A stretch of DNA of 64,000 nucleotides from the human T2T-CHM13v2.0 reference genome, Homo sapiens. Shown here in pieces: positions 4,041-30,331 of this stretch. The notes under the pieces were generated by a model. The model was not told where the DNA came from and searched no databases. It was given only the letters and a program-made list of their open reading frames with translations. Where the stretch lies: NCBI RefSeq assembly GCF_009914755.1, contig NC_060946.1. One strand, written 5' to 3'. The number at the start of each line of letters is the position of its first letter. The stretch's first letter is position 1. The position numbers and the translations under genes were made by a program.

Positions 4041-5434
4041 AGCCTTTAACCCAGAATGCTGAGTAAATTGGCCAAAAATGCTAACCTATGCATTTCAATA
4101 TTATAGGAGTTGCATGGGTAGAAATAACCAGATGAAATACTTCTGGTATTTCACCTTCCCAACCCACACGAGCCAGTGTTTTTCTGTGAATAACAAAAAC
4201 AGCAGAATTTACTTGCCTCTCCATAAGAGGTTACCACTTCTGTGTGTTCCCCCGAAACAGGTGGTGGCTGGGTGAGAAGGTGGACAGCACTAGGGCAGGA
4301 GATGGGGGCTCCAGTATCGTGGGTGAGCTTCCTAAACCTCTGCAACTTTCAGCCCCTAAATGGGATGAGCCATCAGAATTTTTAGCACAATGCCCAGAAC
4401 AAAGTAAGGATTTGACAAATGACGCCTCTCTCCACATTGTTCTGTCATCAGCCACCGCATCCTGTACCTCCAAGCCCACTGGGCTCCGGCTGTTTCCATC
4501 ACATGGAGAATGACTCAGAGCCTGGCCTCCAGCCACCCTCCTGGCCTTTCTTCTTCTCACTCTGCCACTGGCTCCTCATGGACCACCAGCCTGGGTGTCC
4601 TCAGACATACCACACACTTCACTGTGGGAGTCACGCAGCCCTCACTGCTCCTTCGCCAGGGAGCCACGGGGCTTTCCTCCTCAGGAGGACTCTGCAAGCA
4701 GCTGGATGAAGGGCCCTCCCGTCTCTCATCCTTCCTTAATTTTTGTCACAGTTCTCCTTCCTTCCACTCAGTGCAGCGCACACTGATTGATCCTCCATCT
4801 TCCCCAAAAGACAGGAACAGCATGAGCAGTGGAGAGTAGATTCCAATGATAGAAAAAATAGTCAGTGATTTCTCATTTCCATTGATCATCAATGAAGAAA
4901 ATGTATCCTGAAGGTCATGTACCTCCTATGGGACTGCTGCATCCTCAGCCTCCTGAATTTCAGCCCAGCACCTTCCTCCCCAGCACAGCAACAGGTCAGC
5001 CCTTACCAGCATCCCTCTCTTATTGCCTTTGTGCAGAGCCAGCACCAGGGCCAGGGGAGGCCTTGGGATTGTCCCTCCCCAACAATCTGTGAAACAATCC
5101 TTTATGTCACCAACAAAGCACAGCCTTCTGCACTGGTGGTCAGTCCCTCTCAACACCTCTGTCACTGTAAAGCTGGCAGGCAACCCTCCAAGGTTGGCCT
5201 TCCCAAGCACTGCACCTCTAGGTGACAGAGCACGTCCTTACCTTGAAGCCTGGGCGCCCAGTCTATCCTGTCCAATGAGCGAGCTGTGGAGAAGGGGGGA
5301 TTCCGGGTTAAGGGGAGACTAGCAGGGCTCCTGCTTTTATGTTGCCCTGTTGGGAAGGCTATTAAAGAAACACAAAGTGCTAAGCAGTGAGGATAGAACA
5401 TGTTTTCATTATTTCAACCAATACATTCCACAGA

Positions 5435-5835: not shown

Positions 5836-7904
5836 TTCACTACAGCATTGGTTATAAGAGCAAGACTGGAAACAGAACAAACGGATACCCATAGCGGGGT
5901 GCTTAAGTAATTTTGGGAATAGTCATGGGGTGCAGTACTTTATAGCTCTGAAACAATACAATGGATTTACATTTGAAATGTGGAATGATAACTAAGGTGC
6001 ATTGCCCAGTGATATATGCAGAGGTGCAGAGGACTTTGTGTAAACACGATCACACATCAGCCTGCATTCCAGGTGCATGCTTCTATTTGCACATAGATTG
6101 CAGGGATGATATGCAAACAAAAATGTTGACTTGGTGTTTGGAAGTTCAGAGTGGAAGGGAAACTTCCTTGCTAACCTTTTATGATATTTAGAGTTTCTAA
6201 ATGTGAATACGTAATACATTTAGAAATCTTAGTTAATAAGAAAAGCCTCTGTTCCTGGCCTCTTGCTGGCACATGTCAGGTGGAAATGGGGCTGTCATGC
6301 TAATGTGTGCAAACTGAGAAAAATCCAAGAATGGGAGTCTGCTTTTTTCATCATACAAATAATTGTTAATAGAAACAGTATGATAATTGCTCATTGATAT
6401 ACCATGCATATTCTATTAGATAATAATAAATTTCTGAAATTTGAACTATACTTACACATGGAAATTGAAATATATGGATGAAACATTGTGGCTTATATAG
6501 GCAATTGTTTTATTGGCATTTTACAAACTGATCATCATTCCTCATGGCACGGGTCCATGTGATATTAAGTAGCTTGTTATGCTTGGGAAAGGCAGTGATG
6601 ACCACAAGAATGACTTCAACTACTAAAGTACAATGGAGATTTCAACAATGTTTTGTTTAATATTTAAATATTTCATTGTGCTCCCAGGCTTTTTCTCACC
6701 CTAATAGCTCTCATCCATATCATGTGGGTCCCATTAATACAGATACTTCCGAATGCACCACTCTTCCATTATATCCAGTCAATTGCTGGTTACCTTGGGC
6801 CTACCAACTGGGGGAGGGCAGGGGCTGCTGGCCACCTCCTCATCTACAGTAAGAGTCAATGAGCAGTTAAATGGATACTGAAAACCATTTATCCTGCTGG
6901 AGTGAGAAATAAATGGTTTCTTTCAATAGCGTAGTAAAATGCATCTTTTCCAAACTATTTATATGACTCAAGGCCCATCTCAATTTCAGATGTGGTTAGC
7001 CTCAATTCCTGATTCTCACCAAGGTGTGTAATGTCATCCACGGCCCAGTGCAGAGGAACACAGGTGCTGCCGTCAGACTGCCAGGGTCCGATCCCGCCTC
7101 CTCACTCACCCCGGGAGATCCCTTTAAGCCAGGAGTCAACAGTGAGGATGGAAACATGAGTGCTTTTTAAAGTCCTGAAAGTTCAGAGGCAGACTGTCAA
7201 TTTCTCCTCCACCCCTGGGCACACACCAGGAGAACTCTGTCTCCAGGTTGAAGGAAGTGCCTGTGAGAGAGTTGTGTCCCTCAGATTCTGTTCACCACAG
7301 GTGACACTCGATGCAACCCCAAACCTCTTCTGCACAATCCCAAGGGGTGCTGACTAATCCAACCCAAAGGCTGTGATGTTTGGCAGAGGCAGAAAAGAAA
7401 AGGCCAGGTGTTCTGGGAAAGACCACCTTTAAATATCACAGCACCCTCATAGCCCAGAGAGACAGTTCTAACTATTATGCCAATAAACCCGGAAAAGACC
7501 AAATCCAATATGACACATATTTCCTGTTTCCTTTTGATTTCATGCCCCCTCCCTTAACCTCCCAAGCAGCATGGATACCCCGAAGGCCCCTGGGAACTCT
7601 CTCCAATTGGATCTTACGTGGAAAGTAGTTACCTACCTACAAATCCCCATCATCAGATATGCTCTCCACAATCAAATCTTTAGAAACACAAACACCAGGA
7701 TAAGTCATTAGAGAGAGGCCCACCCACTCCTCCCACCCTAGCTGAAGCCATGGTGCTTCGCACAGGATCCCCTGGTGTTTCCTCTGGGCTCACAGATATC
7801 CCTACAGCCTCTCTGGACATTGTTTTATACTTGCAAAATCATTTGCTCTCACCAGACTCCAAATCCTCCTTCCCAAAAGGAGCCCAGAATCAGGTTTCTG
7901 TACC

Positions 7905-7976
7905 CTAGAGATGGCGTTTTTTCCTCAGGAAGTGAGTTATTTCAGGGTAGGTATCATTCTCCAGTGTCAATGGCTC
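7905..7976 (-). other. FAM230 downstream exon, coding-like part EPLTLENDTYPEITHFLRKKRHL*
   Basis: Acceptor ttttcttttctataattgcag; phase 0, matching the phase-0 donor of the array exon; TAG at 7905-7907. Confidence 0.7.
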
Positions 7977-8456: not shown

Positions 8457-8511
8457 GAAAGAAGCCAGGAAAGTAACATTTCTGTTCAAGACAAAGAAAA
8501 GTGTCTTACAT

Positions 8512-10625
8512 TGGCAGCATCTTCTTTTTTACAGATGTCTTGTACAGTGTCCTCATTAGCAATGTCATATACAGCGTCCTTATTAGCGAATTCGTATACA
8601 GCATCCTCATTAGCGATGCCATATACAGCGTCCTCATTAGCGATGTTGTATACAGCGTCCTCATTAGTGATGTCGTATAGAGCGTCCTCATTAGCGATGT
8701 CATATACAATGTCCTCATTAGCGATGTCATATACAGCAACCTCATTCGCTATGTCTTGTAAAGCATCCTCATTAGCGATGTCATATACAACGTCCTCATT
8801 AGCGATGTCGTATACAGCGTCCTCGTTAGTGATGTCTTGTACGGTGTCCTTATAAGCAATGTCGTCTACAGCGTCCTTGTTAGCATGCCTTGTGGGTGTC
8901 ATTAGCGATGTCATATAGAGCATCCTCATTGGTGATGTCTTATATGGTGTCCTCATTAGCGATGTTGTGTACAGCGTCCTCGTTAGCAATGCCTTGTACA
9001 GTGTCCTCGTTAGCAATGTCATATACAGTGTCCTCATTAGCGATGGCTTGTACACTGTCCTCATTAGCGATGTTGTGTACAGCATCCTTGTTAGCGTGCC
9101 TTGTACGGTGTCATTAGCGATGTCGTATACAGCGTCATAATTAGCGATGTCTTATAAGGTGTCATCATTAGTGATGTTGTGTACAGCGTCATCGTTAGCG
9201 ATGCCTTGTATGGTGTCCTCATTAGCGATGTCGTATACAGCGTGCTCACTAGCGATGTCTTTTTTTTATATATATACTTTAAGTTTTAGGGTACATGTGC
9301 ACATTGTGCAGGTTAGTTACATATGTATACATGTGCCACGCTGGTGCGCTGCACCCACTAACTCATCATCTAGCATTAGGTATATCTCCCGATGCTATCC
9401 CTCCCCCCTCCCCCCACCCCACAACAGTCCCCAGAATGTGATATTCCCCTTCCTGTGTCCATGTGATCTCATTGTTCAATTCCCACCTATGAGTGAGAAT
9501 ATGCGGTGTTTGGTTTTTTGTTCTTGCGATAGTTACTAGCGATGTCTTATACGGTGTCCTCATTAGCAATGTCGTGTACAGCGTCCACGTTAGCGTGCCT
9601 TGTCGGTATCATTAGCAATGTCGTATAAAGCGCCCTCATTGGTGATGTCTTGTACGGTGCCGTCATTAGCGATGTTGTGTACAGTGTCCTTGTTAGCGAC
9701 GGCTTGTATGGTGTCCTCGTTAGCGATGTCGTATACAGCGTCCTCATTACCGATGCCTTGTATGGTGTCCTCATTAGCGATGTCGTGTACAGCGTCCTCG
9801 TTAGCGTGCCTTGTACGGTGTCATTAGCGATGTCATATACGGCACCCTCATTAGCGATGTCGTATACGGAGTCCTCATTAGCGATGTCGTGTACAGTGTC
9901 CGCGTTAGCGTGCCTTGTCGGTATCATTAGCAATGTCGTATAAAGCGCCCTCATTGGTGATGTCTTGTACGGTGCCGTCATTAGCGATGTTGTGTACAGT
10001 GTCCTTGTTAGCGACGGCTTGTAGAGTGTCCTTGTTAGCGATGTCATATACAACATCCTCATTACCAATGCCTTGTATGGTGTCCTCATTAGCGATGTCG
10101 TGTACAGCGTCCTCGTTAGCGTGCCTTGTACGGTGTCATTAGCGATGTCATATATGGCATCCTCATTAGCGATGTCGTATACGGAGTCCTCATTAGCGAT
10201 GCCGTGCACGGCATCCTCGTTAGCAATGCCGTGGGCAGCGTCCTCGTTGGCGATGCCATGGGTGGCGTCCTCGTTGGCGATGCCGTGGACGGCGTCCTCG
10301 TTGGCGATGCCCTGGGCGGCGTCCTCCTTGGCGATCCCGTGGGCGGCGTCCTCCTTGGCGATGCCCTGGGCGGCGTCCTCGTTGGCGATGCCCTGGGCGG
10401 CGTCCTCGTTGGCGATGCCCTGGGCGGCGACCTCGTTGGCGATGCCCTGGGCGGCATCCTCGCTGGCGATTCCGTGGGCGGCGTCCTCGTTGGCGATGCC
10501 CTGGGCGGCGTCCTCGTTGGCGATGCCCTTGTCGGCGGCCTCGTTAGCGATGCCGTGGACAGTATCCTCGTTAGCGATGTCGTGTGTGGCGTCCTGGTTA
10601 GTGATGTCATGTACGGTGTCCTCAT
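8512..10625. repeat. 27-bp minisatellite (consensus tcctcattagcgatgtcgtatacagcg; minus-strand translation ANEDAVYDI)
   Basis: Directly visible period; 9-aa periodic translations in several frames; GC-rich variant block at 10215-10560. Confidence 0.98.
9262..9534 (-). mobile_element. 5'-truncated young L1 (L1PA2-like) inserted in the minisatellite
   Basis: L1 3' UTR antisense with T-tail; 14-bp TSD actagcgatgtctt at 9248-9261 and 9535-9548; GAG rather than ACA/ACG at the Ta-diagnostic site. Confidence 0.93.
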
Positions 10626-11877
10626 GGGGAGCTAGAAAAACACAGAGTTAAGGTCAGTGCCCTGGTGGTGGAGACTGTGAATCACCCAGGGGCTTGCTTG
10701 GTGTGATGCATGGAGGTGGCTGATCACAGCATGGGTCAAGCTGATGCTGGGACATCCTCCCAGGTGGACCTGCACTAGTGAAGCTAAGGGATGTGGCTCA
10801 GAACACTTTCTGCAGTGGGAATCAGTTTCCAGGTTCAGGTATGCATTATCTGGTGAAGTGGGGAAATATAAAAAATAAAAATTGACAAATTCATGAAAAG
10901 CCTTCCATGAGTGCAAGTGTGAGTTTTTTATCCACTTTACATTCAGTATGCATTCACACATACAAAATATTTTTACAAGAAATCAGAAATTTTAATTTTT
11001 GTCAGTTATGTGAAATCTAACTTAGCTGCCAGCATAAAGATTCTATCTCATTTACTTGGTCTCGAGAAAATCTAGCACATAGTAAGTAGACCAAAATGTT
11101 TATTAAATGAAAACACAGAGCAGAGATAGGGGGGCTGCTAGGCAGACTGGGTTGCACCTGATTACCTGGATGATAATAAACTGCACAAAACCTCGGTCAA
11201 ATTAATATTGAAACTGCCTTTTGCTTGGGCTCATTTCCCTTGCGGAAGAAGGATGACCAAGAAGATGAACAGGAAAGAAATGAGAAACAGAGGCCTTTGC
11301 TTAGTAGCTAAAGGCCACCTTCTGTAACATGAAATAGTCTACAAGTGGCCTTGAACTCTGCCGTGATTTAGTGACAGAGTTCCCTCATGTCTTCTACCCA
11401 GGTTGAAGTCCAGCAAAATTGCGACTGTCCTCTTTACAACTTGCGAGACCACACTGCTTCTGCATTTGCCTGTTGTATGTATGAGATTTACACTTGTTTT
11501 AGAGCAACATTTTGTTTCAGTTGGGCTGGTGGCCATACCCGGCACTAGCCGGTCAATAGTGAGATGGCTCCTCATGGAGGAGGCTTGGCTTGAGGCTGAG
11601 GGTCTTTAACCCACATATACAAGAGAGTTGCCACTAAGGGATGGAAGCCAGGCTAATAACCAAGTGCCACACAGAGTTCCTATCTGTCCCTCCTCACCAT
11701 TTTTGGCTGGCAGGATTTGAGCATTTTAGGGCTTGGGAAGATAGTATTACTAAATCTACTAAAGTACATCACCCATCCTTATAGACTTTGGCCAGTTGCT
11801 GAGCAAATTAACTTCACAACTGAAGTGGGCCACACTGGCCTTTGTGGTCCCCCACTCCTCTTAGAATTTGTGAGCGT

Positions 11878-12061
11878 GGGGCCTACTGGAGGGTGGGAGG
11901 TGGGAGGAGGGGGTGGATCAGGAAAAATAACTGATATTAGGCTCAATATATGGGTGATGCAATAATCTGTACAACAAACTCTCATGACACACATTTATAT
12001 ATGTAGCAAACCTGCACATCCTGCACATGTACCCCTGAACTGAAAAGTTAAATAAAAAAAA
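11878..12061 (+). mobile_element. L1PA 3' end fragment
   Basis: gggtgatgcaataatctgtacaacaaac ... aaacctgcacatcctgcacatgtacccctgaact plus A-tail. Confidence 0.9.
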
Positions 12062-12847
12062 GGGATCTGTGAGCTGAGCCAAACACCTGGGGATCTTTGT
12101 GCTTTTGACACACTGATGACTATGCCGGTCCGTGGGGAGATGAGCCTATAACTGCCCTGGGTTGTGTGACCACGGAGGCCACTTTATGATGATGGGCAGT
12201 GTCTGGGGCCTCTTGGGCTCGGTGCCTTAGGGTTTATACATGAATGCTGGACTCCCTGTGTGGTGGTGAACACCCCATGACTAAGTGCATGTCAGCGTCA
12301 GCACTGGCCCACACTCCTGGGTTCGTGTTTTCACTTTTTCATTCAGGAACTCGGGAGCTGGGGCCACTCCCTTGGCCCTTCAGGTTCTCCACCTGAGCAG
12401 TGGGGATAATAAGGCAGACCCGGGGATGGCTCTGGTGAGGGTGGAGGAGTCACTGTACAGAGAGAGTAGAGCGGGGGTGGATTTTATTGTTAGAAGTGGA
12501 CACTGGTGATTGGGTTGTATAAGTGGGAAATCTCTCCTGAGAAAACACACAGCCTCACCTGTACAGAAACACACACATTCACACCACACGATGCAGCCTC
12601 ACACAAGACACCACCAATCCTCAAGCACCCAACTCAGCACCACCCAAAAGGGAGCACAGCTGCTTCCTCAAAATTTGGCCATAATTTTTCCCTGGGGAAT
12701 TCAGGTTTTAAAAAAACACTTCCCCTATACTTATTCCTATCACAATCCCAGGATCAGGGAGGCTCTTCACATTGAAACCAGGCAAGGATGCCACACCTTT
12801 CTTGGCATCCAGATTGTTTTCTTGGCAAGTGATTCCAGAATACTTAC

Positions 12848-12881
12848 TAGATTCAAGCCTCAGAGGGGCCACCTGCACCAC
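12848..12881 (-). other. FAM230 exon (34 nt, phase 0 to 1): VVQVAPLRLES
   Basis: tttgtttctgtattgcag acceptor, gtaagt donor. Confidence 0.75.
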
Positions 12882-13346
12882 CTGCAATACAGAAACAAAG
12901 CTTTTTGAGGGGTATGTCATGTTGTGGATTGTTTGCACAAGGCTCTGTTTCTCTCAATGAATACTGAAAACTTGATCAGAAAGTGTAGTCAACTTCAAGG
13001 CCTCCAAAACAAGAGTAGGATACACACTGGAAAAGACATCAGCTTCTGGATGGTGGATCTCTCAGGTCCACGTAGGTTGGCAAGTGCAAAATACTGAATC
13101 CAAGGAGAAGACATTGCTTCCAAGGACAAGGACCCCAAGGATACAGTCTACAACCTGAAGCCGTCATAGCTAAATGCCATTTTGGATTACATATCAGTTG
13201 CTAAGAGTCACTTCTTCCTCCCCCTCAGAAAACTGCATTTAATACCTGTCATGGACATTGTCATTTTTTCACATGTAAAGTCAGTTGAAAAAGAAAGACA
13301 CCAAGAAAGGAACATTTCTATTTCAGAGAAAGCAAGGCAACCTTAC

Positions 13347-13408
13347 CCTCGCGTTGACTGGCCTCTCTCCATCTCCTCTGTCCTTGTGAACTAGAGACTC
13401 CTCAGAGG
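13347..13408 (-). other. FAM230 exon (62 nt, phase 1 to 0): ASEESLVHKDRGDGERPVNAR
   Basis: ctctgtgtcctcctag acceptor, gtaagg donor. Confidence 0.75.
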
Positions 13409-14379
13409 CTAGGAGGACACAGAGCAACAGTTAGTCATAGATGCTTTTGTTCATGAGTTATTCAGGGAGCTCTGCTTAATGTGGACAACAGGACAGTGTG
13501 TGTGGATGTGTTTCATTAAAAGCACAGCTTGAGCTCCTGCTAGAAAATCTTCCCTCGTGGAAAGACAGGCAAGAACGAGGAGCTAAGGAGCGAGAAATAG
13601 AGTCCCTGGCATTTTGCTGATGGCAACTTAAGAAAATGGGAATGAGTCAGTCTACAAATGGTACTGAAGCACATGCTATAGTTTGATGAGAGTCCCACTG
13701 CTCACACTGTGAGGTTTGAAACCCAGCTAAATGGTTTTCTAAACCTGTAAAAACAATATTAGCTTGCAGGATTTATGTCCCAAGACTACTTTTACCTCTG
13801 AGGATCCACAGTGGCTGTCACTGCAGTTATGTGTTTTAGCATTTTGCACTTGAATAAAAGCAAAGTTTAATAGATAGATTGGATTCAATTCTAGGCAAAA
13901 CAGTCTATGGTATTTATTCACTAATCCTTTGTTATAACTGCTGATGGGAGAATTAGAAGTACTGAAATTATATCCTTTAAAATTAATTAAAGCATAATTA
14001 TTAATCACACAATATTTTTTCATCCAGGCCTCCTTTTCTTTGTCATGCATGCATATTAATTGAGGATGGAGAATATCTACGCTTGTTCAGGCCAGCCAAC
14101 ATACGACAGTTTACTTCAAGAGAGGAGACATGGGTTGAATGCTGGTGTGTTTTAACTCTGCAGTGCAAACAGCTGCAACAAGTGTGGTGAACTAAACACC
14201 AGATGGCCCTTTGCTGCCTTATTTGTCATTGTGCCTTACATGTAGCTTGCAGGATTTGATTACGCTTATGTTTTGTGGTGATCATACTTTCAACTATTCC
14301 TAAAATACTGCTTCAGTCTTATCTGTTTGGGGTCAACTGCCGAGGATTTCATACAAATTAATGAAGTTTGTGAATCTAA

Positions 14380-15350
14380 AGTTCTACACAAAGGTGGAAA
14401 TATTTGCAAATCATTTATCTTGTAAGAGACTAAAATTTAGAATATATTTTAAATATATTTAAGATATATTCAAAAATCTACAGCAACAAACTAACTAAAT
14501 AAAAATCAGACAACTCTTTAAAAATGGGCAAAAGACTTCAACATATATTTCCCTAAAGAAGATACAGCCACAGATAGTAGCACAGGAAAAGCTGCTCAGG
14601 ATCATTAGTCATTAGGGAAATGCAAATGAAAAACACAAGCAGCCACCAATATACACCTACTAGGATGATTTAAAGGAAAATAAGTGTGAAGAAGGACGTA
14701 AAGAAATTGTAACCCTGATACATTGATGGTAGAAATGGATAAAGTTGCAGCCACTGTGAAAAACAGTCTGCAGTGGCTCAGAAGGTTAAATATAGAACCC
14801 CTGTTGGACCCAGGAACTCTATTCTTAGGCACCCCAAAGAATAGAGAACAGAAATCAAACAGATGTTTGTATACTAATGTTTGCAGCATCACTTTTCACA
14901 GGAGCCAAAAGGTGGAAATAATCCAACCATCAGTGAACAAATGAATGTAACAAAAGCAAGGTGGTCTGCATGCAATGCTACATCATCCATCTGTAAAAAA
15001 CGAACATCATTTTGATAGATGATACAACATGGGTGGACATTGAGAACATTATGCTTAGTGAAATAAGCCAGACACAAAAGGAATATATTGTATAATTGTA
15101 ATTACATGAAGTGCCTAGAATAGTCAAATTCATACAAGAGAAAGTGGGATAGGAATCACCATGGGCTGGAAATAGGGGGAAGGTGCTATATTGCTTATTG
15201 TGGACAAGGTTTTGTAAGAAATCATCAAAATTGTGGGTGTAGATAGTGGTGTTGGTTATGCAACCCTGTGAATATATTGAATGCCATGGAGTGCACACTT
15301 TGGTTAAAAGGTTCAAATGATAAATATTGTGTTATATATATTTCCCCACG
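14380..15350 (+). mobile_element. Old L1M (L1MB-like) 3' portion
   Basis: aaaatgggcaaaagacttcaac, tcattagggaaatgcaaat, cattatgcttagtgaaataagccagacacaaaagg. Confidence 0.85.
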
Positions 15351-15407
15351 ATAGAAAACACGCACAGCCAAGCCCAGATGCCAGTCTTGTTAGCTGCCTT
15401 CCTTTAC

Positions 15408-15473
15408 CTTCAAGAGTGGGCTGAAGCTTGTCCAATCTTTCAAGATTGCTGAAGACTGTATGATGGAAGTCAT
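15408..15473 (-). other. FAM230 exon (66 nt, phase 1 to 1): DDFHHTVFSNLERLDKLQPTLE
   Basis: tttctttcccaatgcag acceptor, AAG|gtaaag donor. Confidence 0.75.
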
Positions 15474-16280
15474 CTGCATTGGGAAAGAAATTAATGGAGA
15501 GAGGAGAAAATTTGAGAATCCACAGTACTCACCCTGCAGGGCCAAGAACTCTGTCTCCCATGCTTTGCTGTCCTGTCTCAGTATTTCCTGTGACCACCTC
15601 CTTTTTCAACTGAAGACTTTGCACCTGAAGGGGTTCCCAGGTTTTTCACCTCGGCCCTTGTCAGGACTGATCCTCTCAACTACTGACCATTTCACCTCCA
15701 TTCATGTCCATGCCACATCAGGCTGTGTTGTCTAGATGGAATGAATCCACCCCAAATGTCCCTTTCTGGAGGAAGCCACCATTATGCTGTACCTCCAAGC
15801 ATAATGGTACGTCCACACACACCAAGGCACCTCGCTCATGCAAGGTGTGTGTCCTCTAACAAAGTTTCACGCTCTAAACCCAGATAACTTTTGAAACCCA
15901 AGTTCTGTTGATTCCCCTACTTTGGGTGCTCCATAGATGCTCATTTGTCTACTAAACACTGCCCCAGGCAATTAAATATTCCAAAGTGACCAGCAGAATT
16001 TTTATGTTAATTCTGACATTGCGTTGTTAGTACAAGTGTTTTTCCCCCTTCAAATTTATGTCTTTGTTACTGATAAATGTAACTGATAATGCGTTTTTCA
16101 GCTATGTTGCCAAGCATATTTATATAAAAATATACTCAGATTGTTTTCAGAATTTGACAAAGATGATAGCAACAATGATAATCTTATTTGTTTTATACCA
16201 ATCTTTATGTGTTACTTTCATCATTTCTTACATATTGGGGCCTACCATACATTGTACGGTGAAATTAGTGCTATGCATCA

Positions 16281-16670
<390 letters not shown>

Positions 16671-18469
16671 TCAAAGCTACATTACTCATCAAAGAAAATA
16701 ACAAAACAATTAAATGTCCATTAACTGATAAATGAATAAACACTATCTGTATGAGTAAACACAGCAGACTATGAAGGAAAACACATGACCAGCACGTGCT
16801 AACACGTCAATTAACTTCAAACATAGTATGCTAAATGAAGGAAGTCAGATTCCAAATATATATATATGTCCATTTCTATTAAGCAAATGGGAAATTTATG
16901 GAGATGGAATGTCACAGCAGTATTGCTTAGGGCTGGAGATGGGAGTGGGGATTAACTGCCAGTGCGCAAGAGAGAACTTGGGTGAGGGAAACATATTTAA
17001 ATTAGATCGTGGTGATGGGTGCACACAGTATCAATTTAATAAAGCATCAAATTGTAGACCTTTTCAGTGGGCAAACTTTATGGTGGGTTCACACCCAATA
17101 TAGGTGTTAAAAATAAATTAATGTTACGGAAATTCTTGTCGGGTTTTTAACAAGCCAAGAGATATGCTGTGAAAGCAGCATTAATTCAAATGGTTGTCAC
17201 AGGTCACTTAAAGTTAGATAGTTGTCCTACAAATATAGGGTGAATGTTATTCATGAATTTCCTGAATCTATTGCAATAATCACATTTTTTTCCATTAAAC
17301 TCTTGAGGTAGCTAATTTTATTTATTGCATTTTCAATGTTAATCTACTATTTCATATATTGAGATTAACTCACATTAGTCAGAATTTACAGTATTTTAAA
17401 ATATCACAGAATTTAATTTACCTTATCTGGTTTTGGTTTCAAGACTATACTAGCCATTTCATTTAATTGTACATGTAGGGTATTCTAATTTATGGAAAAC
17501 TATTACATCTTCCTTGATTTTTTTTTTTTTTTAGAAATTACTTCTAGGGATCTATATGGTAGAGTCCATGGAGAATTGTTTTAATTCTTCATTCATGTCT
17601 TCAGTGGGTATAGGATTGGTCATATTGGTCATAGTTTTCTGCTCGGATTTCAATAAGAAACTTGTGGAAGAACCTGAAGGGTGGGATCTTTGAGGGAGCC
17701 TAAGACAGAGCAAGACAAGCTAAGAAGGAGGGCAGTGCCACAGCAGAACTGCCATTGATGCCCCCTCGCCTAGATTGCGGAAGAGACATCCAGCTGTAGA
17801 CACTGAGGTGCAGGAAAACAATGGAGCACCATCAGAGAAAGCAGTGCCCAGGAACAAGGAGGCACTGATGGTGGCAAGGGGCAAAGACAGCTGCCACGAG
17901 GCTGTTCACATGAGGGTCTCAGGCTGCATAGACACCCACACCAGCTGAGGGGTCCTGGTTTTCATAAAGTGTGTGGCTCAGCCAGGCCACCAACAAGCAG
18001 TTCACAAACAGTAGTAATACGACACTTTCCAAAGACCTTACTTGAGTAACACGGTGATCCTCACAAATTTCCAATCAGGATGGTCGCACAGTTCCTCCTG
18101 CTTTAGGACTCAGAGCCTGCCCGTGGTCACAGTGGGTAGGTGCAGACTCTGAAGATGCACTTTGGTCAGAGACCCTGCTGAACTCTGTCTAATGAGGACC
18201 TCTGTCCTGTCTGCTGACCACCGGTCAGAGGTGCAGGCTGCAGTGGGGAGTAAGAATGCCACCTTCTCAATGTTGGGAAAACTCCCTGCCAGAACTGAGA
18301 ATGGCCCTTTCTAAGCAGAAGGCAAGCTCAGACTAAAGAAGGAGGCCGAACACATCAGGTTGGCAGATTGCCAAAGATTCACTCAGGGAGAGCCCACATC
18401 CTGGGCCATCTTGGGTGGTGGCAAGATGAGGTAGACGACTGCTTTTGCAACACACACCTGACAACAAAA

Positions 18470-20030
<1,561 letters not shown>

Positions 20031-20381
20031 ATATGCTCAGTTTTTATGTCAATTTAAAACTCTCTAAAGAAATATATTAATTGAAAAATAATAATATAGC
20101 ACCACTCTTTCAGGGAGATCTATGCTTATGTTTAACAACCAGGTAAGTTCTAGACATTAGCTTGAAACATTGTCTATCATTAAACATGAACCAAAATTGA
20201 CTTTTAAGTAGATATTTACTTTTGTGGTGGTAGCAATATTTACTGACCAGGCAAATTAGAATCCTGACACATTAAAAAATATGGCTTAGTCTCTTCATAG
20301 TTTCCTCTTACATATGGGACACTGAATACTCCCCGCAACTGCAATTCTTGAATCAACTTAATTAATGAACTTCCACAGTAC

Positions 20382-20468
20382 CTTCTTGTGGGTACCTCTT
20401 CTTCTTTACCCGGGAGCCATGAGGTCTCCTACACTGGTTGGTGTGCACAGCATATCTTCTTATATTCT
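20382..20468 (-). other. FAM230 exon (87 nt, phase 1 to 1): ENIRRYAVHTNQCRRPHGSRVKKKRYPQE
   Basis: catcttctctgatag acceptor, AAG|gtactg donor; stop-free and a multiple of 3. Confidence 0.65.
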
Positions 20469-23414
20469 CTATCAGAGAAGATGCTGGTTAATGCATTTAC
20501 AATAGATAGGGCTGTTGACATCTTGCTGACAGAGGACCAGAGGGAAAATAGTGATAATCTGTTCTAAGTTTAAACTTATGATCCTTTTCTTTACAGGCTT
20601 CCAAGCAGAGCCCACTGAATCAAAGTTGGGTTTCAGGAAGATCACGGAGTTCAGTGAGCACTCAACACCTCTATCAGACAGACTGCGTGGGCAGTGCCTT
20701 CCTGGAGAGGAGAATACAGCAGGATGACTGTGAGTGCAGGGCTGGTGCAGAGTAGGGGCCCGGATTCAAATTCCACTAAGCCATGTGGACCTGGCAAGCT
20801 CATGTCCTCCCTCTGCCCTCAGTTCTCTGCACTGTCATAATGTAATTTTAGCAATACTTTTTAGGCCCTATTTAGGCCCTACTTCTTAGTATCACAGTAC
20901 AGGGCTAAAAAATCACTAAATACAGGAAAACCTTAGAGAGGACTGGTACTTCAGTAATGTTCTCTAAGTGTTTACTACAGGCCAGGAGGAATAAGCTGGA
21001 CACTCAGCAGTGGCGGAATATGGAGGGGGAACTTGGATGGCTCCGGGGCAGTGGAGCATGCTTTCCTGTTCGGCTTTTCCGTGGGCATGATGCCTTATGG
21101 TTTATGGAGAACATCAGCCCTGCAGGGGGTGCAGAGGAGGGGCTGTGGCTGAGATTTTACACTTGAGGGTGCTGACATTCAGAGATGATAAGTGACGAGC
21201 AGAACCTCAACCCCGCTGAGTGAAGGACCTGAGATGGGAAATGTATTTGGTTCCCTAGAGAGAGAGATTCCTGAAAAACTGCCACCTCTTCATCACGCCC
21301 TGTGCCAGAGACCCAAGAGACCCCTCACTGTTTTTCTCCAGTCCTCCTAGCCCAAGGTGTGTGGGTGGACAAAGGTGATGCTCTGGAGGAAATGCCTGAG
21401 ATAAGGACAGGTCCTTAATGATAAAGAATTCTCCTTCCTCTTTCAGATCCTTGACCTCCCAGTATGACAGCTTAAAGGCTGTCATCTCTGTGGCCTGCCT
21501 CCCCTTTCCCTTCACCCTGCCAGCTGCCTCTCAGTGACTGTCTCCTCCAGTGACTACACTGAGGGACCAGGGACTGCTTGCCTCCCGAGGCTGCTCAGAC
21601 CTTCCGACACTGCAAAATGATTGTCAAAAGATGGGTCTGCAAAGAGTAACTTCCCTTCCACTGATCAAACCTGAATATGCAAGCTACTGTGAATTAACTG
21701 GAAAAGTGGCCGTGTGGGCTGGTGCTTTGGTGATTTAATGAATTAAGTCTGCAACCCCCACTGCCTCCTTGACTATTGATCAGAGCTGCCTGCAATAAGG
21801 TCTGGCTAAGAATGGGCAGTGGCTGCACCAGCTCTGGGTAAAATTTGACCTAAAATGACCAGTCTCATTCACTAACCTCACCATAGTCTTATGGGTTCAA
21901 TGGACCTGTCCAATCCTTTGCTCTGTTCTCTCCATCACCTTCCTGTGTAATTTTCCTCCACCACGCACATAAGAGAAACATGGCACAGGGGAGCTAATCG
22001 CCTCTTTTATCCCCCACTTCAGGCTCACACGTAAGTTTATAGTAAAAGCCTTTTCAAATGACTGCTTTAACTGCTGCTACAGCATGTGTCATCAGTTGAA
22101 TGGAATCTGTCACGTGACTTTAAGCAACCCTTTGCTGAGAGACAAGATTCAATACTAGGGACAGTATTCTAGTGTACTACATCATTGATTTTATGTTATG
22201 AAGATCATCATTTATTGAAAATGTATAAATAATGAAGCCCAGCCTTACTCTTCAACGCTGTGTGTGTAAATCCACTGAGTGTGCTGACCCCCACGCTTGT
22301 ACCCACCTGCTAACACAGAAAGGGTCCACTCAGAAGGCAGGCACAGCTCCAGCACTGAGGCTGTCCACACCAGCTTCACAAGAGGGTTGCCACAAGGACG
22401 ACGGATACCCGGATAACAACCAAATGGTAATTTGAGTACTTAATGGTCATGATCCCTAAAGTGTGTAGCTCAGAGGGCTTGTGGTGATAACTCCATCAAG
22501 ACTCTAAAGCATCTCCCCAATTCTTACTGGACTTGATCCATGTCTTGAGGAGACCCAGCTATGACACGCAGGCACCACGTTGTCCTACTTAGTGCCTCCC
22601 TTAGTGTTTCAGAACCTGTGATTTGATCAGAAACATGGGCTTTCTATGTTGGTTTCACACTAAGGACTATGTGACACCTGCAGGAAGATGTCTACATAGC
22701 TACCTGGATTATGAGATCATGAGGCTGTCTTATGTGAGGGATGGCGTTTGGGATCTCTGCAGGCGTGGGTAATTCCAGGCATAGAGGGTGCTGGAACTCC
22801 CTTGCATGGTGAATAGTGATCTCTTCACTGGCTGATAAATAGTGGTTGTAGTTCAGGCCTTCAACATTAGCACCGTATGAGGAAACATTTTGACTCTTCA
22901 CTATGCAGCAAGTGAACCAGGGCACATTTATTTATGTGGCTTAGTTTCTCCATCTGGCATGTGGGCTCAATAAACAAGCTCACAACATATGGGCATGATG
23001 ATGATGAGGTGTGAACTAATGTAAGTAAAGTATGTGGTCTGATTTGTTAAATTAAGAAACATGGCACTGAGAGTTGTGCTGGGTAAACACAACATTTTTT
23101 TCCTAGGGGAAACACACATAGACACACATTCACAAGCAAATCATGCAGACTTGCACACAGACCACCTCACCCCACCCCCGCCCTAATACACACATACCCA
23201 CACACAACCTAATGTGAACATGTTCCCAGAAACTATACATAGATAAAAAGAGTATGTCACCAGGAAAACCAGTTTCTTTTACTATACCCTACATCCTCAT
23301 TCCCACCAGATGTCTTGGATCATGGAGGCTCTCCAGACAAAAGCCAGCAGTTAAGCTCCAGATTTCCTGTAGAATCCTTTTCTAACAACCAGTGAGTGAT
23401 TCCAGAATACGTAC

Positions 23415-23439
23415 CATTGAATGTGCTCCCTGAAGTCAC
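23415..23439 (-). other. FAM230 exon (25 nt, phase 0 to 1): VTSGSTFN
   Basis: ttttccttctctaattacag acceptor, gtacgt donor. Confidence 0.7.
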
Positions 23440-23907
23440 CTGTAATTAGAGAAGGAAAACACTCTGAGAATCAGGCTATGCTATGGATGGCTCACACAGG
23501 TCTTTTGTTCACTTGGAAACTCTGGGTAACCAAGACTGGAAATAAGGTTCAAGTCAAAAGCCCCAACTCTAGAGTAGAGTTGCCTTAGGAAAGCACAGGA
23601 GCTTTTGTTGAAGAATGTTTCTGTCTAGGTAATTTTTGAGTAGCAATTGCAGAATTCTTATCTAAAGTGGAAAGCTTGTTCCTGAAGAAAACATCCCTTA
23701 ACACCCAGTGTACTATCTGACACTGCCAATTTTGCACGTCCTCTGGAATCAGGTGTCAGTTGGTAAAATACACCTCCTCCATCCCCAAGGAAATATTATC
23801 TAACACCTATAATGTAGTGGAGAATTTTCCCATAGCTGATATCAACTGAAAAATAAAGGATCCAAGAAAACAACATTTACATCTTAGGCAAAGACAGGCT
23901 ACTTTAC

Positions 23908-23966
23908 CTTGGTAGTAGAGTAGGGCTTCCTTTTCACACGCTTTTTGGAAGGCTTCTTCGAGTCAC
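23908..23966 (-). other. FAM230 exon (59 nt, phase 1 to 0): GDSKKPSKKRVKRKPYSTTK
   Basis: ccctccacatcccctag acceptor, AAG|gtaaag donor. Confidence 0.7.
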
Positions 23967-24474
23967 CTAGGGGATGTGGAGGGACACAGCATGGCTGTCA
24001 GTTCATTGGCAGTGCTACTCATGAATGACTCAGGGACTGGAACTTAGGGGCGTGCCTGGTTAACAAGCATGGAATGAGCTTCTCCTGGACCATCTTCTTC
24101 ACGGACCAAGGAAGGCAAAGAAAGAGCAGCAAGGAAATGAGAGTAGAGCCCTTGGCTTTCCAGGTAATGGCAAATGAAAGCAACGTGAAATAATCAACTC
24201 CAAATGAACAAATGCTAAAACACATGCTACGATTCAACCACAGCATCCTGTCACTTCTTCAGACCCTTTAAAAGCCCAGCAGGACTGCCACTACCTTCTT
24301 GACATCGACCAAGTCCCTTTCAACCTCCACAGACCCACATACACTGCTACTGCATTTATCATGGAGGGTATAGGGTTCTGCCCTGTTTATGTGTGAATTT
24401 TTTAAAAACTAGATTTAATACCATGCACCAGCATTAATTGTATTTATTTCTTTTCTTGGTTATGAAAATAATCA

Positions 24475-24587
24475 GTCAGGCATAGTGGCTCACACCTGTA
24501 ATCCCAGCAGTTTGGAAGGTGGAGGTGGGTGGATCATTTGAGGTCAGGAGTTCGAGACCAGCCTGACCAACATGGTAAAACCCCATC
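24475..24587 (+). mobile_element. Alu left-monomer fragment, abruptly truncated
   Basis: gtggctcacacctgtaatcccagc ... aacatggtaaaaccccatc followed by non-Alu sequence. Confidence 0.9.
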
Positions 24588-24706
24588 ATTGAAGATAAAT
24601 GTTTTATATCCATGGTTAACAGATGAGATGACCATGAAATGAACACCAGTGTACTGGGTGGAGCAGCTTATCTATTCAGTCTTCGGCACTAAAACCTGTG
24701 AAACAA
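24496..24706 (-). other. Candidate FAM230 exon ending in the antisense Alu (ATGs at 24589 and 24586)
   Basis: Acceptor ttgtttcacag near 24707; donor CAG|gtgtga after 24496; phase 1 from the ATGs. Confidence 0.45.
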
Positions 24707-26349: not shown

Positions 26350-26911
26350 AGATACATATTTTTTAAATGAAGAAAAATTTCAAAGATACTCTGCTTGGTA
26401 CAGTAATCAAATATATAAATTGAGGAATAAAACATAATCATGAAACATATTTATAACTGCATATGGAAAATACAGAGGCTAATTTTTTAAATAACATATT
26501 TTGAAAGCATTAACTAGTAATTTGAAAAGATCGCATTTGACAGGCCAGTATGAACATACCTTGAATGCAGCCACACAGGTTCCCCATAAGAAAAATCAAA
26601 ATCAGGGAAAATGAAACCACAATGGTTCAATCTGCTCTGACCTTTGAAAAACTCAGCACAGATAGTGGCACGTAGGACCAAGGGCAGGAGATCCCTAATC
26701 CCATCACCATGGTGATAGGGCATAAACATTCCAGGGTGAAGGCACAATCCACACTGTGAGGTCCAACTGCTGCCATGCAGACAGGTGGGCTTTTACAACT
26801 ACAGGAAGGTCATCAAAGGCTCAGTGTTTTGTTTCAAAAACTGAATCCCAAGCCCACACATTATTATGCTGGCTTCTTAAAATAAGTTATGAGATGGGAA
26901 ATAGGGCACCC
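26350..26911. repeat. HSAT1(B)/DYZ2-like unit, copy 1
   Basis: ~560-bp unit present five times in the window, always between an Alu fragment and an AT-rich block: the tripartite HSATI/Alu/AT cassette known from 22q11 and Yq12. Confidence 0.8.
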
Positions 26912-27193: not shown

Positions 27194-27757
27194 AGACACA
27201 TATTTTTTAAATGAAGAAAAATTTCAAAGATACTCTGCTTGGTACAATAATCAAATATATAAATTGAGGAATAAAACATAATCATGAAACATATTTATAA
27301 CTGCATATGGAAAATACAGAGGCTAATTTTTTAAATAATATATTTTGAAAGTATTAACTAGTAATTTGAAAAGATCGCATTTGACAGGCCAGTAAGAACA
27401 TACCTTGAATGCAGCCACACAGGTTCCCCATAAGAAAAATCAAAATCAGGGAAAATGAAACCACAATGGTTCAATCTGCTCTGACGTTTGAAAAACTCAG
27501 CACAGATAGTGGCACTTAGGACCAAGGGCAGGAGATCCCTAATCCCATCACCATGGCGATAGGGCATAAACATTCCAGGGTGAAGGCACAATCCACACTG
27601 TGAGGTCCAACTGCTGCCATGCAGACAGGTGAGGGCTTTTACAACTACAGGAAGGTCATCAAAGGCTCAGTGTTTTGTTTCAAAAACTGAATCCCAAGCC
27701 CACACATTATTATGCTGGCTTCTTAAAATAAGTTATGAGATGGGAAATAGGGCACCC
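27194..27757. repeat. HSAT1(B)-like unit, copy 2
   Basis: 844-bp offset from copy 1 (ORF track 26514 vs 27358). Confidence 0.8.
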
Positions 27758-29765
<2,008 letters not shown>

Positions 29766-30331
29766 AAGATACATATTTTTTAAATGAAGAAAAATTTCAA
29801 AGGTACTCTGCTTGGTACAATAATCAAATATATAAATTGAGGAATAAAACCTAACCATGAAACATATTTATAACTGCATATGGAAAATACAGAGGCTAAT
29901 TTTTTAAATAACATATTTTGAAAGCATTAACTAGTAATTTGAAAAGATCGCATTTGACAGGCCAGTATGAACATACCTTGAATGCAGCCACACAGGTTCC
30001 CCATAAGAAAAATCAAAATCAGGGAAAATGAAACCACAAAGGTTCAATCTGCTCTGACCTTTGAAAAACTCAGCACAGATAGTGGCACTTAGGACCAAGG
30101 GCAGCAGATCCCTAATCCCATCACCATGGCGATAGGGCATAAACATTCCAGGGTGAAGGCACAATCCACACTGTGAGGTCCAACTGCTGCCATGCAGACA
30201 GGTGTGCTTTCACATGTACAGGAAGGTCATCGAAGGCTCAGTGTTTCATTTCAAAAACTGAATCCCAAGTCCACACATTATTATGCTGTGCTTCTTAAAA
30301 TAAGTTATGAGATAGGAAATAGGGCACCCCC
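29766..30331. repeat. HSAT1(B)-like unit, copy 3
   Basis: Same unit as copies 1 and 2, slightly more diverged. Confidence 0.8.

What the first reader, a model, noticed from the sequence alone, without database searches (positions are those of the whole stretch)
9547..24589. Hidden spliced ~503-aa ORF in a FAM230 'lncRNA': eight exons with matching phases
Seen: minus-strand GT-AG exons 24589-24496 (94 nt from the ATG), 23966-23908 (59), 23439-23415 (25), 20468-20382 (87), 15473-15408 (66), 13408-13347 (62), 12881-12848 (34) and 10631-9547 (1085) sum to 1512 nt, or 504 codons, with no internal stop. Translation: [178 protein letters not shown](IANEDAAQG)n... The array is entered in the acidic ANEDA frame, and its far end leaves in that same frame into EPLTLEND...RHL*. 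The six-frame track cannot show this. Inference: FAM230 is a current or recently decayed protein-coding gene for a protein with a basic NLS-like head (KKPSKKRVKRK, RVKKKR) and a variable-length acidic repeat tail. Caveat: I chose the exons by eye, and the first (Alu) exon is the weakest.
Basis: partly seen in the sequence, partly recalled or inferred. Interest (0 to 1): 0.85.

Follow-up and report, generated by a model that had tools for sequence, protein, structure and literature searches.

The report
Real FAM230D reading frame, already known
The long spliced reading frame in the 'non-coding' gene FAM230D is real and descends from a fast-evolving testis protein family of Old World monkeys and apes, but it is already in public records, starts at a different first exon than proposed, and stops early inside its own repeats.

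Summary
The arithmetic holds. The eight minus-strand exons have AG/GT borders, sum to 1512 nt and read open for 503 codons plus TAA. Exons 2-7 and the exon-8 acceptor are simply RefSeq's FAM230D exons.

Two parts of the model are wrong. The Alu first exon is unsupported and unnecessary. RefSeq exon 1 (29977-30111) holds the transcript's first AUG, in frame, giving MGNLCGCIQ-GDSKK.... The tail is also misdescribed. The frame slips twice out of the acidic register and stops at 9547-9549 inside the 27-nt array, 11 nt before an L1 fragment. The peptide EPLTLEND...RHL* lies in another frame and exon.

The frame is inherited from a catarrhine-only family of predicted proteins. The idea is not new:
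- The same RefSeq release annotates two paralogues as protein-coding with this CDS plan.
- Delihas 2020 noted the large ORFs.
- A 2025 PeptideAtlas audit names FAM230D as the nearest locus to UniProt B4DYQ5, with testis peptides.

Among the nine human copies the exons diverge like introns and 17 of 20 changes are non-synonymous. The stop leaves four downstream junctions, which predicts NMD.

Verdict: a truncated, drifting copy of a real testis protein gene. Already known.

The parts
29977..30111 (-). RefSeq exon 1 of FAM230D. The start codon is at 30004-30002 and the coding part is 29977-30004 (28 nt, MGNLCGCIQ + 1 nt). The donor is GTATGT.
   Evidence: this is the only ATG in the first 200 nt of the RefSeq transcript (position 108) and it is in frame with exons 2-8..
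27404..27538 (-). Second tandem copy of exon 1, with the same start codon, the same nine codons and the same GTATGT donor. It overlaps RefSeq's 'OCT4 hESC enhancer' 27385-27886.
   Evidence: 97.7% identical over 175 nt.
26560..26694 (-). Third tandem copy of exon 1, with the same start codon and donor. The position of the acceptor reads GG instead of AG.
   Evidence: 98.3% identical over 173 nt.
24496..24589 (-). It is not part of any annotated FAM230 transcript.
   Evidence: masked 24472-24610; 23 matches in the window; 0 of 15 and 0 of 4 transcripts use it.
23908..23966 (-). Exon 2 (59 nt): GDSKKPSKKRVKRKPYSTTK, the polybasic cluster.
23415..23439 (-). Exon 3 (25 nt).
20382..20468 (-). Exon 4 (87 nt), with the second basic cluster. 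It is the fastest-diverging exon against FAM230I (17 of 82 aligned nt differ).
15408..15473 (-). Exon 5 (66 nt). It was not found in FAM230I and is missing from most monkey and gibbon proteins. It is present in orang-utan P0005.
13347..13408 (-). Exon 6 (62 nt).
12848..12881 (-). Exon 7, short form (34 nt). A long form, 12797-12881 (85 nt, donor GT at 12796-12795), adds an in-frame 17-residue piece (SKYSGITCQENNLDAKK) that gibbon, gelada and colobus proteins use.
9547..10631 (-). Coding part of exon 8: a 27-nt repeat array read from the acidic register, ending at TAA 9549-9547.
9913..10128 (-). First out-of-register block (about residues 289-360 of the 481-aa ORF). The acidic repeats here lie in another frame.
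   Evidence: Coordinates were derived from residue numbers.
9598..9813 (-). Second out-of-register block (about residues 394-465), 315 nt from the first.
9859..10173 (-). The 315-nt gap in the RefSeq exon set (AT..AC borders). It equals one unit of the 315-nt higher-order repeat at 9537-10224 and is in frame. I read it as a repeat-number difference between the cDNA and this assembly rather than an intron (inference).
9260..9536 (-). A 277-nt 3'-end fragment of an L1 element with an A-rich tail, in gene orientation. It splits the array and begins 11 nt after the stop codon.
   Evidence: The L1 identity rests on my recognition of the sequence, not on a database call.
8510..9259 (-). Distal array (27.2 copies of the 27-nt unit) ending in ...DICKKEDAA. 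This is the stretch most like the primate proteins (72% identity to gibbon residues 119-212), but it is not in the start codon's frame.
7904..7976 (-). The exon holding EPLTLEND-TYPEITHFLRKKRHL*.
7637..7677 (-). The exon matching the ancestral acidic C-terminus (DLIVESISDDGD against ...LIVESISDDEDFA in apes and monkeys).
   Evidence: match at 7687-7643.

Best explanation
FAM230D is one of at least nine near-identical human copies (eight in the chromosome 22 low-copy repeats, one on 13p) of a catarrhine-specific, testis-expressed gene that once encoded a small, low-complexity protein.

The ancestral protein has four parts:
- a Met-Gly-x-x-x-(Ser/Gly)-Cys N-terminus;
- a polybasic head;
- acidic 9-residue repeats (DIxNEDAVx);
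- an acidic C-terminal tail.

In FAM230D the seven head exons are intact, and the transcript's first AUG (exon 1, 30004-30002) opens the frame. The expanded 27-nt array then slips twice out of the acidic register. The frame stops at 9547-9549, next to an L1 insertion, and the ancestral C-terminal exons are left out of frame.

The resulting ORF is 376 aa on the RefSeq exon set and 481 aa on the contiguous genome. It is followed by four exon junctions, which makes the mRNA an NMD candidate. That is the likely reason RefSeq curates it as lncRNA (inferred).

Shown here: the anatomy, the homology, the shared stop among copies, and the lack of detectable constraint among copies.
Inferred: some protein is made in testis from this or sister copies (published multi-mapping peptides). 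If made, it would be N-myristoylated and palmitoylated and held at membranes by the adjacent basic cluster.

My commitment: this copy is a drifting, truncated family member, not an independently selected gene.
For: ORF and exons.
First AUG, stop position and four downstream junctions (the last is 1306 nt after the stop).
Same CDS plan annotated protein_coding in LOC128966590 (445 aa) and LOC128966596 (474 aa).
All 9 of 9 D-type copies keep AG/GT at exons 1-7 and an open 121-codon head. ORFs run 306-1532 aa. 7 of 8 chr22 copies end at the same ...HDIANED(T/S)V stop.
The head is open in only 45 of 20,000 shuffles.
Homologues are catarrhine primates only: 7 hits among 840 scored candidates and 12 among 15; sequences.
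A tblastn-like search of the whole reference with gibbon P0002 gave 130 matches, all on chr22 or chr13.
Ancestral C-terminal pieces map to the downstream FAM230D exons in another frame.
Frame slips. L1 fragment.
No visible constraint among copies. Head CDS divergence is 0.55-3.9% against intron divergence of 0.8-3.8%. There are 19 variable columns, 3 synonymous and 17 non-synonymous, against 5.9 synonymous expected (p=0.22), and P(no stop in 20 neutral events)=0.57.
Older protein-level selection. Between FAM230D and FAM230I the CDS differs at 41 of 290 nt against 38 of 720 in the 60-nt flanks (p=7e-6). Non-synonymous sites against flanks give p=4e-8.
Literature, passages read:
- PMC12679747 names FAM230D as the nearest genomic equivalent of UniProt B4DYQ5, states testis expression, and reports peptides in testis and cancer lines.
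- PMC11601488 reports FAM230A with 6 strong peptides, almost all from testis or sperm, multi-mapping.
- PMC7098633 describes large ORFs in FAM230 and a 454-aa ORF in an NMD transcript.
- PMC7436996 lists FAM230A as testis-specific.
Against: No peptide, Ribo-seq read or cDNA could be examined here. The published peptides are explicitly multi-mapping, so translation of FAM230D itself is not shown.

The paralogue comparison has little power (20 events). It cannot separate neutrality from weak or positive selection. An excess of non-synonymous changes (17 of 20) would also fit ongoing adaptive evolution of a working protein.

The start-codon frame is the only one of the three that stays open through the whole 1083 nt of the proximal array. 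That could reflect maintenance.

NMD is predicted from a recalled rule of thumb and was not measured, and testis transcripts often escape it.

The acylation motif is a recalled pattern match only.

The primate proteins are automatic predictions, which favour open frames.

D-type features appear in some monkey proteins (P0001, P0007). The D/I split is therefore old, and intron similarity may be affected by gene conversion.
Confidence: 0.65

Rival explanations
1. FAM230D and its sister copies are working protein-coding genes: a multi-copy, rapidly evolving testis/sperm protein with variable repeat length. On this view the lncRNA label is an annotation error caused by the NMD rule and by multi-mapping.
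For: The first AUG opens the ORF. 9 of 9 copies have an open head and intact splice sites. The start frame alone stays open through the proximal array. Exons diverged faster than flanks against FAM230I. 17 of 20 changes among copies are non-synonymous. Gnomon calls two sister copies coding. Peptides were found in testis and sperm.
Against: The open frames across copies are expected by chance at this divergence (P=0.57). Exon divergence is close to intron divergence among copies. The ancestral C-terminus is lost, and about 140 residues are an out-of-register reading of the repeat. There are four junctions after the stop. The PeptideAtlas authors could not place the peptides, and they class FAM230C as aberrant translation.
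Confidence: 0.2
2. FAM230D acts only as an RNA or has no function. The ORF is a relic that is not productively translated.
For: RefSeq and HGNC class all FAM230 members as lncRNA (finding's annotation). The transcript is an NMD candidate. No constraint is detectable among copies. The array is open in several frames by construction.
Against: The head ORF is not chance (45 of 20,000 shuffles). It is homologous to primate proteins. It begins at the first AUG. Peptides of this protein type are reported in testis.
Confidence: 0.12
3. One reading: a transcript that starts in the Alu at 24589, splices from 24496 to exon 2, and encodes a 503-aa protein ending in EPLTLEND...RHL.
For: The Alu segment has an in-frame ATG and a usable GT donor, and the joined frame is open.
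Against: No annotated FAM230 transcript uses it (0 of 15; 0 of 4). Annotated exon 1 already supplies the first AUG in frame, in three tandem copies. Primate homologues and all human copies start Met-Gly. The stated tail lies in another frame and exon.
Confidence: 0.03

Closest known systems
RefSeq Gnomon models LOC128966590 (XM_054326256.1, 445 aa) and LOC128966596 (XM_054326261.1, 474 aa) in LCR22A of T2T-CHM13
   Same: They have the same eight-exon CDS plan, the same start (MGNL(C/S)(G/C)CIQ), the same head, the same two out-of-register blocks and the same stop (...HDIANEDTV*). The head differs from FAM230D at 4 and 7 of 363 nt.
   Different: They are annotated protein_coding, whereas FAM230D is a curated lncRNA. 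They carry different numbers of acidic repeat units (ORFs of 445 and 474 aa against 481 aa).
UniProt B4DYQ5 / 'FAM230A' TrEMBL entries (cDNA BAG63817.1)
   Same: PMC12679747 states that FAM230D is the nearest genomic equivalent of B4DYQ5 and reports peptides in testis and cancer lines. Delihas 2020 links BAG63817.1 to the FAM230A ORF.
   Different: I could not retrieve these entries, and they did not appear. The paper says much of B4DYQ5 would be missing from FAM230D, which fits repeat-number differences.
FAM230I and the ape and monkey 'uncharacterized LOC' proteins (P0010 bonobo, P0011 gorilla, P0002 gibbon, P0009 gelada, P0006 colobus)
   Same: They share the exon order, the Met-Gly start, the GDSKKPSKK cluster, the ASEES...GERPVN...VAPLR block and the acidic 9-residue repeats.
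   Different: These keep one acidic register through to ...ICKKEDAxKEPxxLENDLIVESISDDEDFA and are 194-334 aa long. Human FAM230I keeps a complete 240-aa ORF. FAM230D has an extra exon 5, a much longer array, frame slips, an early stop and an L1 insertion. Its head CDS is 14% diverged from FAM230I.
UniProt Q9UF83 (DKFZp434B061)
   Same: It comes from the same 27-nt repeat family. The paper calls FAM230D a 'Q9UF83-related lncRNA'.
   Different: Q9UF83 corresponds to a different reading register, the S/P/T/R-rich frame seen. Its best genomic match is on 13p, and its peptides come only from cancer lines.
Dual-acylated, polybasic N-terminal membrane anchors (SH4-type, as in Src-family kinases; recalled from general knowledge)
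   Same: They share Gly at position 2, a small residue at position 6, neighbouring cysteines, and a Lys/Arg cluster within the next 20 residues. The net charge of residues 1-65 is +16.
   Different: No sequence homology is claimed and there is no kinase or other domain. Acylation was not tested. This is an analogy of mechanism only.

Membership tests
Catarrhine FAM230-type protein family (Met-Gly head, polybasic cluster, acidic 9-residue repeats, acidic tail) | Head exons homologous and in the same order and phase. | tested here: met
   exons 2, 4, 6 and 7 of the window align to P0002, P0005, P0006, P0009, P0010 and P0011; the same exon lengths and AG/GT borders occur in 9 D-type copies.
Catarrhine FAM230-type protein family (Met-Gly head, polybasic cluster, acidic 9-residue repeats, acidic tail) | Start codon followed by Gly, in the exon-1 homologue. 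| tested here: met
Catarrhine FAM230-type protein family (Met-Gly head, polybasic cluster, acidic 9-residue repeats, acidic tail) | Acidic repeats read in one register through to the ...ICKKEDA...LEND... tail. | tested here: not met
   there are two register slips and a stop at 9547-9549, and the tail exons (8510 end, 7904-7976, 7637-7677) are in another frame.
Protein-coding gene by usual annotation criteria | Long ORF opened by the 5'-most AUG of a supported transcript. | tested here: met
   the only ATG in the first 200 nt is at position 108, giving an ORF of 376 aa on the RefSeq exon set.
Protein-coding gene by usual annotation criteria | Stop codon in the last exon, or within about 50-55 nt of the last junction (the NMD rule, recalled). 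| tested here: not met
   four junctions follow the stop, and the last is 1306 nt downstream.
Protein-coding gene by usual annotation criteria | Purifying selection on the coding sequence. | tested here: inconclusive
   among the 9 copies, exon divergence is close to intron divergence and 3 synonymous against 17 non-synonymous changes were seen, but there are only 20 events; against FAM230I the exons evolved faster than the flanks. No primate DNA was available.
Protein-coding gene by usual annotation criteria | Locus-specific peptide or ribosome evidence. | not testable with these tools
   The published peptides are multi-mapping, supplements are closed and no reads were available. D-only tryptic peptides are listed.
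   it occurs in 0 of 15 lncRNA transcripts and 0 of 4 multi-exon mRNA models. RNA reads were not available.
N-myristoylated/palmitoylated polybasic anchor | Gly2, a small residue at position 6, no Pro at position 7, nearby Cys, and a basic cluster (pattern recalled from PROSITE-type rules). | tested here: met
   MGNLCGC in 6 of 9 D-type copies (MGNLSCC in X2, MGNLCCC in C); MGIHFSC (FAM230I, bonobo, gorilla); MGNHFSC (gibbon); MGNQFSC (colobus); the head carries a net charge of +16.
N-myristoylated/palmitoylated polybasic anchor | Demonstrated acylation and membrane binding. | not testable with these tools
   This needs a metabolic-labelling or localisation experiment.
Any curated protein domain family or solved fold | A significant profile or structure match. 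| tested here: not met
   no Pfam family reached its cut-off for 4 of 4 proteins; 0 PDB sequences at E<=1; no usable Atlas hit.

The most novel reading that the evidence does not exclude
The D-type FAM230 copies together encode a great-ape or human-lineage, multi-copy spermatid protein. It would be tethered to membranes by an N-terminal myristoyl/palmitoyl plus polybasic anchor. It would carry a hypervariable acidic repeat followed by a newly acquired out-of-register Ser/Thr/Tyr-rich tail. It would evolve adaptively, with dosage and repeat length varying with LCR22 structure. If so, the 22q11.2 low-copy repeats would carry a real, polymorphic reproductive gene family currently annotated as lncRNA. 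Separately, FAM230I would be an overlooked intact gene of 240 codons.
Probability: 0.15. Interest if true: 0.6.

Novelty: already known. Interest (0 to 1): 0.25.

Why it matters
The FAM230 genes sit in the low-copy repeats that mediate the 22q11.2 deletion, and they are routinely treated as lncRNAs, including in many cancer-biomarker papers (listing). The transcripts in fact carry a first-AUG frame inherited from a fast-evolving primate testis protein, and peptides of that type are seen in testis. That affects how expression and 'lncRNA function' studies of the family should be read.

For FAM230D itself the practical message is limited. The frame is real, but it is already recorded. It is truncated relative to its ancestors, and it cannot be told apart from its sister copies in current proteomics.

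The useful corrections are:
- the true start codon, in exon 1;
- the true end of the frame;
- the reinterpretation of the basic head as a possible lipid-anchor partner.

Tried and rejected
Tried without result:
- Pfam scan of three primate homologues and the exon-8 translation. Nothing reached a cut-off.
- PDB sequence search with P0011. It gave 0 hits at E<=1.
- ESM Atlas look-alikes for P0011. No usable hit, and the Atlas holds no model of it.
- Structure prediction on alignment A1. I give only charge and composition.
- Retrieving human B4DYQ5/FAM230A entries. They were absent from both protein searches. In one search, 7160 candidates were left out as unnamed, 37 were. The absence therefore says little. 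The third protein search was left unused.
It required two of six terms and returned only Delihas 2020, so it does not test whether a single peptide occurs in print. Supplementary peptide tables of the PeptideAtlas papers are closed and may list the actual peptides.

Considered and rejected:
- The 9859-10173 gap as a true AT-AC intron. It equals one 315-nt higher-order repeat unit.
- Intact ORFs in 9 of 9 copies as evidence of selection. P=0.57 under neutrality.
- Array openness as evidence of coding. Several frames are open.
- The Alu exon as the start.

Rows dropped:
- FAM230I was left out of the nine-copy statistics because it lacks exon 5 and has an in-frame length change in exon 4. It was analysed separately.
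- In one search, array-internal tblastn hits were filtered from the printout.
- One search uses megablast HSPs only. Unaligned intron stretches are not counted, so intron divergence may be underestimated.

Full report
OBSERVATION

The eight minus-strand segments have the stated lengths, every internal border is AG...GT, and the sum is 1512 nt.

Exons 2-7 and the acceptor of exon 8 are exactly those of RefSeq NR_136570.2 (finding's annotation). The matching phases are therefore those of a curated, cDNA-based transcript and were not discovered afresh.

Three details fail.

First, the proposed exon 1 (24589-24496) lies in a masked dispersed repeat (24472-24610). That repeat has 23 matches in the window, itself included. 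No annotated transcript uses it: 0 of 15 RefSeq FAM230 lncRNA transcripts and 0 of 4 multi-exon Gnomon mRNAs of the paralogues.

Second, the tail is not EPLTLEND...RHL*. The ORF ends ...HDIANEDTV*. The quoted tail lies in exon 7904-7976, in a different frame of the transcript.

Third, the array is not crossed in one acidic frame. Two blocks of about 70 residues each are the acidic repeat read out of register (window ~10128-9913 and ~9813-9598). In those blocks the acidic reading sits in another frame that ends in stops.

THE TRUE START

RefSeq exon 1 (29977-30111) contains the only ATG in the first 200 nt of the transcript, at position 108 (window 30004-30002). It is in frame with exons 2-8 and gives MGNLCGCIQ followed by GDSKKPSKK....

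On the RefSeq exon set the ORF is 376 aa. On the contiguous genome it is 481 aa. The 315-nt difference is the RefSeq gap at 9859-10173. That gap has AT..AC borders and equals one unit of a 315-nt higher-order repeat (2.2 copies, 94% matches). I read it as a repeat-number difference and not as an intron.

Exon 1 is present three times in tandem in the window, each time with the same nine codons and a GTATGT donor.

ANATOMY OF THE LARGE EXON

Tandem Repeats Finder gives two blocks of 27-nt repeats: 41.0 copies at 9537-10625 and 27.2 copies at 8534-9259. They are separated by a 277-nt fragment at 9260-9536, which I recognise as the 3' end of an L1 element with its A-rich tail (one look, as it stands).

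The stop codon lies 11 nt upstream of that insertion, in gene orientation. The distal block is the part most like the primate proteins and ends ...DICKKEDAA at the exon end, but it is not in the start codon's frame.

A long open frame through the array is not evidence of coding in itself. Transcript positions 557-877 are open in all three sense frames. The head is different: only 45 of 20,000 shuffles of its 360 nt stay open.

WHAT IT DESCENDS FROM

Two protein searches returned only catarrhine primates. Searching with the exon-8 translation gave 7 hits among 840 scored candidates, with 7160 unnamed candidates left out. Searching with the head of gibbon P0002 gave 12 hits among 15 scored candidates, with 37 left out. 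The species are gibbon, siamang, orang-utan, gorilla, bonobo, macaque, gelada, mangabey, colobus and green monkey, plus a human entry named 'p14ARF/FAM230A fusion protein' that uses exons 2-7 in this same frame.

These predicted proteins are 194-334 aa long. Their layout is a Met-Gly-x-x-F-S-C start, GDSKKPSKK, a conserved middle block, acidic DIxNEDAVx repeats in one register, and a tail ...ICKKEDAxKEPxxLENDLIVESISDDEDFA.

Searching the whole human reference with the gibbon protein gave 130 matches, all on chr22 or chr13, that is, the FAM230 loci themselves. The pieces of the ancestral tail all map to downstream FAM230D exons or nearby sequence.

Pfam, PDB and the Atlas gave nothing.

THE PARALOGUES

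I fetched the other copies from the same reference.

All nine D-type copies keep AG/GT at exons 1-7, identical exon lengths and an open 121-codon head. These are FAM230D, F, J, G, B and H, two unnamed LCR22A copies, and FAM230C on chr13.

Their ORFs from the start codon are 306-1532 aa long. 7 of the 8 chr22 copies end at the same ...HDIANED(T/S)V stop. The slips and the stop therefore predate the spread of these copies.

The two unnamed copies are annotated protein_coding in the same RefSeq release, with exactly this CDS plan (LOC128966590, 445 aa; LOC128966596, 474 aa).

SELECTION

Among the nine copies the head CDS diverges like the introns: 0.55-3.9% against 0.8-3.8% (megablast-aligned introns only).

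There are 19 variable columns and 20 events, 3 synonymous and 17 non-synonymous. Neutral expectation is 5.9 synonymous (p=0.22). The probability of no stop in 20 neutral events is 0.57. Pairwise dN/dS scatters from 0.29 to 3.14. There is thus no sign of purifying selection since the copies spread, and power is low.

Against the older paralogue FAM230I, the coding exons differ at 41 of 290 nt while their 60-nt flanks differ at 38 of 720 (Fisher p=7e-6). Non-synonymous sites against flanks give p=4e-8, synonymous sites p=0.05, and dN/dS is 1.6.

Exons that change faster than introns point to adaptive protein evolution at some earlier time, as is common for testis genes. Gene conversion of the introns is an alternative I cannot exclude.

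WHY IT IS CALLED NON-CODING

The stop is followed by four exon junctions, the last of them 1306 nt downstream. By the usual 50-55-nt rule (recalled) this makes the mRNA an NMD candidate. Delihas describes FAM230A transcripts in the same terms.

WHAT IS IN PRINT (passages read with 'find', not whole papers)

[quoted passage not shown] In my tables FAM230J gives 454 aa.
- PeptideAtlas audit preprint, PMC11601488: FAM230A has 6 strong peptides, almost all from testis or sperm, unplaced because they multi-map. FAM230C has 19 peptides and is classed aberrant.
- PMC7436996 lists FAM230A among testis-specific genes.
- PMC9834047 reports FAM230C and FAM230F among the most Y-spermatid-specific transcripts.

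The supplementary peptide lists were closed.

MECHANISM

Shown: a testis-annotated transcript whose first AUG opens a 376-481-aa frame. The frame consists of a strongly basic head (net charge +16 over residues 1-65), an acidic array (net charge -34 over residues 122-305) and a derived, out-of-register tail.

Inferred: with the true start, the N-terminus fits the recalled N-myristoylation pattern. Gly is at position 2, a small residue is at position 6, and cysteines flank it. Gly2 is present in all ten human copies and in the seven primate proteins that begin at the exon-1 homologue. It is followed at once by the Lys/Arg cluster. Neither was tested.

My best reading (confidence 0.65) is that FAM230D is a truncated, NMD-prone, drifting copy of a real testis protein gene. 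Its product, if made, would be redundant with the products of its sister copies.

VERDICT

The core claim is already known from public annotation and from papers. Interest: 0.25.

Noticed in passing
outside the window: chr22:23884837-23909741 (FAM230I; loci L018, L019, L025): RefSeq lncRNA NR_110539.2 carries a complete 240-aa ORF from its first AUG, with the full ancestral layout through to the acidic ...DDEDFAA tail. It is 225/238 identical to bonobo P0010 and 220/238 identical to gorilla P0011, and every length difference is in frame. It looks like an intact member of the family annotated as non-coding. Its stop lies 146 nt before the next junction.
   Followed up: partly
window 29977-30111, ~27404-27538, ~26560-26694 (minus strand); 61348-61482 and 62210-62344 (plus strand): The first coding exon is tandemly repeated about every 845 bp, three times for FAM230D and twice for FAM230F/E. 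Every copy has the same start codon, the same nine codons and the same GTATGT donor. The middle FAM230D copy overlaps the RefSeq 'OCT4 hESC enhancer' 27385-27886.
   Followed up: partly
outside the window: chr22:20757811-20766515 (downstream of annotated FAM230G; loci L012, L013): The 27-nt array is hugely expanded in CHM13 here, with open frames of 1417-2211 aa. The ORF from the FAM230G start codon runs 1532 aa and ends in a different register.
   Followed up: no
window 9550-10629 minus strand, frame +1: The same array read one base later gives a 175-residue S/P/T/R-rich repeat (...ASPTRTPPR...). This is the reading type deposited as UniProt Q9UF83, which the PeptideAtlas audit reports with 20 peptides, all from cancer cell lines.
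   Followed up: partly
window 3289-3357, 5243-5285, 6797-6844 (minus strand): Short stretches match C-terminal pieces of monkey proteins that are not FAM230D exons. One is a hydrophobic, tail-anchor-like segment of colobus P0006 (LRSKSFCCLPSVLIILIIVISIV in the window). Some lineages may therefore make a membrane-inserted isoform.
   Followed up: no
window 12797-12847 (minus strand): There is an in-frame 51-nt extension of exon 7 with its own GT donor at 12796-12795. Gibbon, gelada and colobus proteins use it, and the human p14ARF/FAM230A fusion entry reads through it.
   Followed up: partly
window 15408-15473 (exon 5): This exon was not found in FAM230I (only part of its downstream flank matched) and is absent from most monkey and gibbon proteins. 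It is identical in orang-utan P0005, and a differently worded insert sits at the same place in colobus and green monkey proteins. It is probably a lineage-specific or alternative exon.
   Followed up: no
literature, not the window: Murat et al. [quoted passage not shown] This is odd for autosomal genes and unexplained here. My search of the reference with P0002 listed matches only on chr22 and chr13.
   Followed up: no
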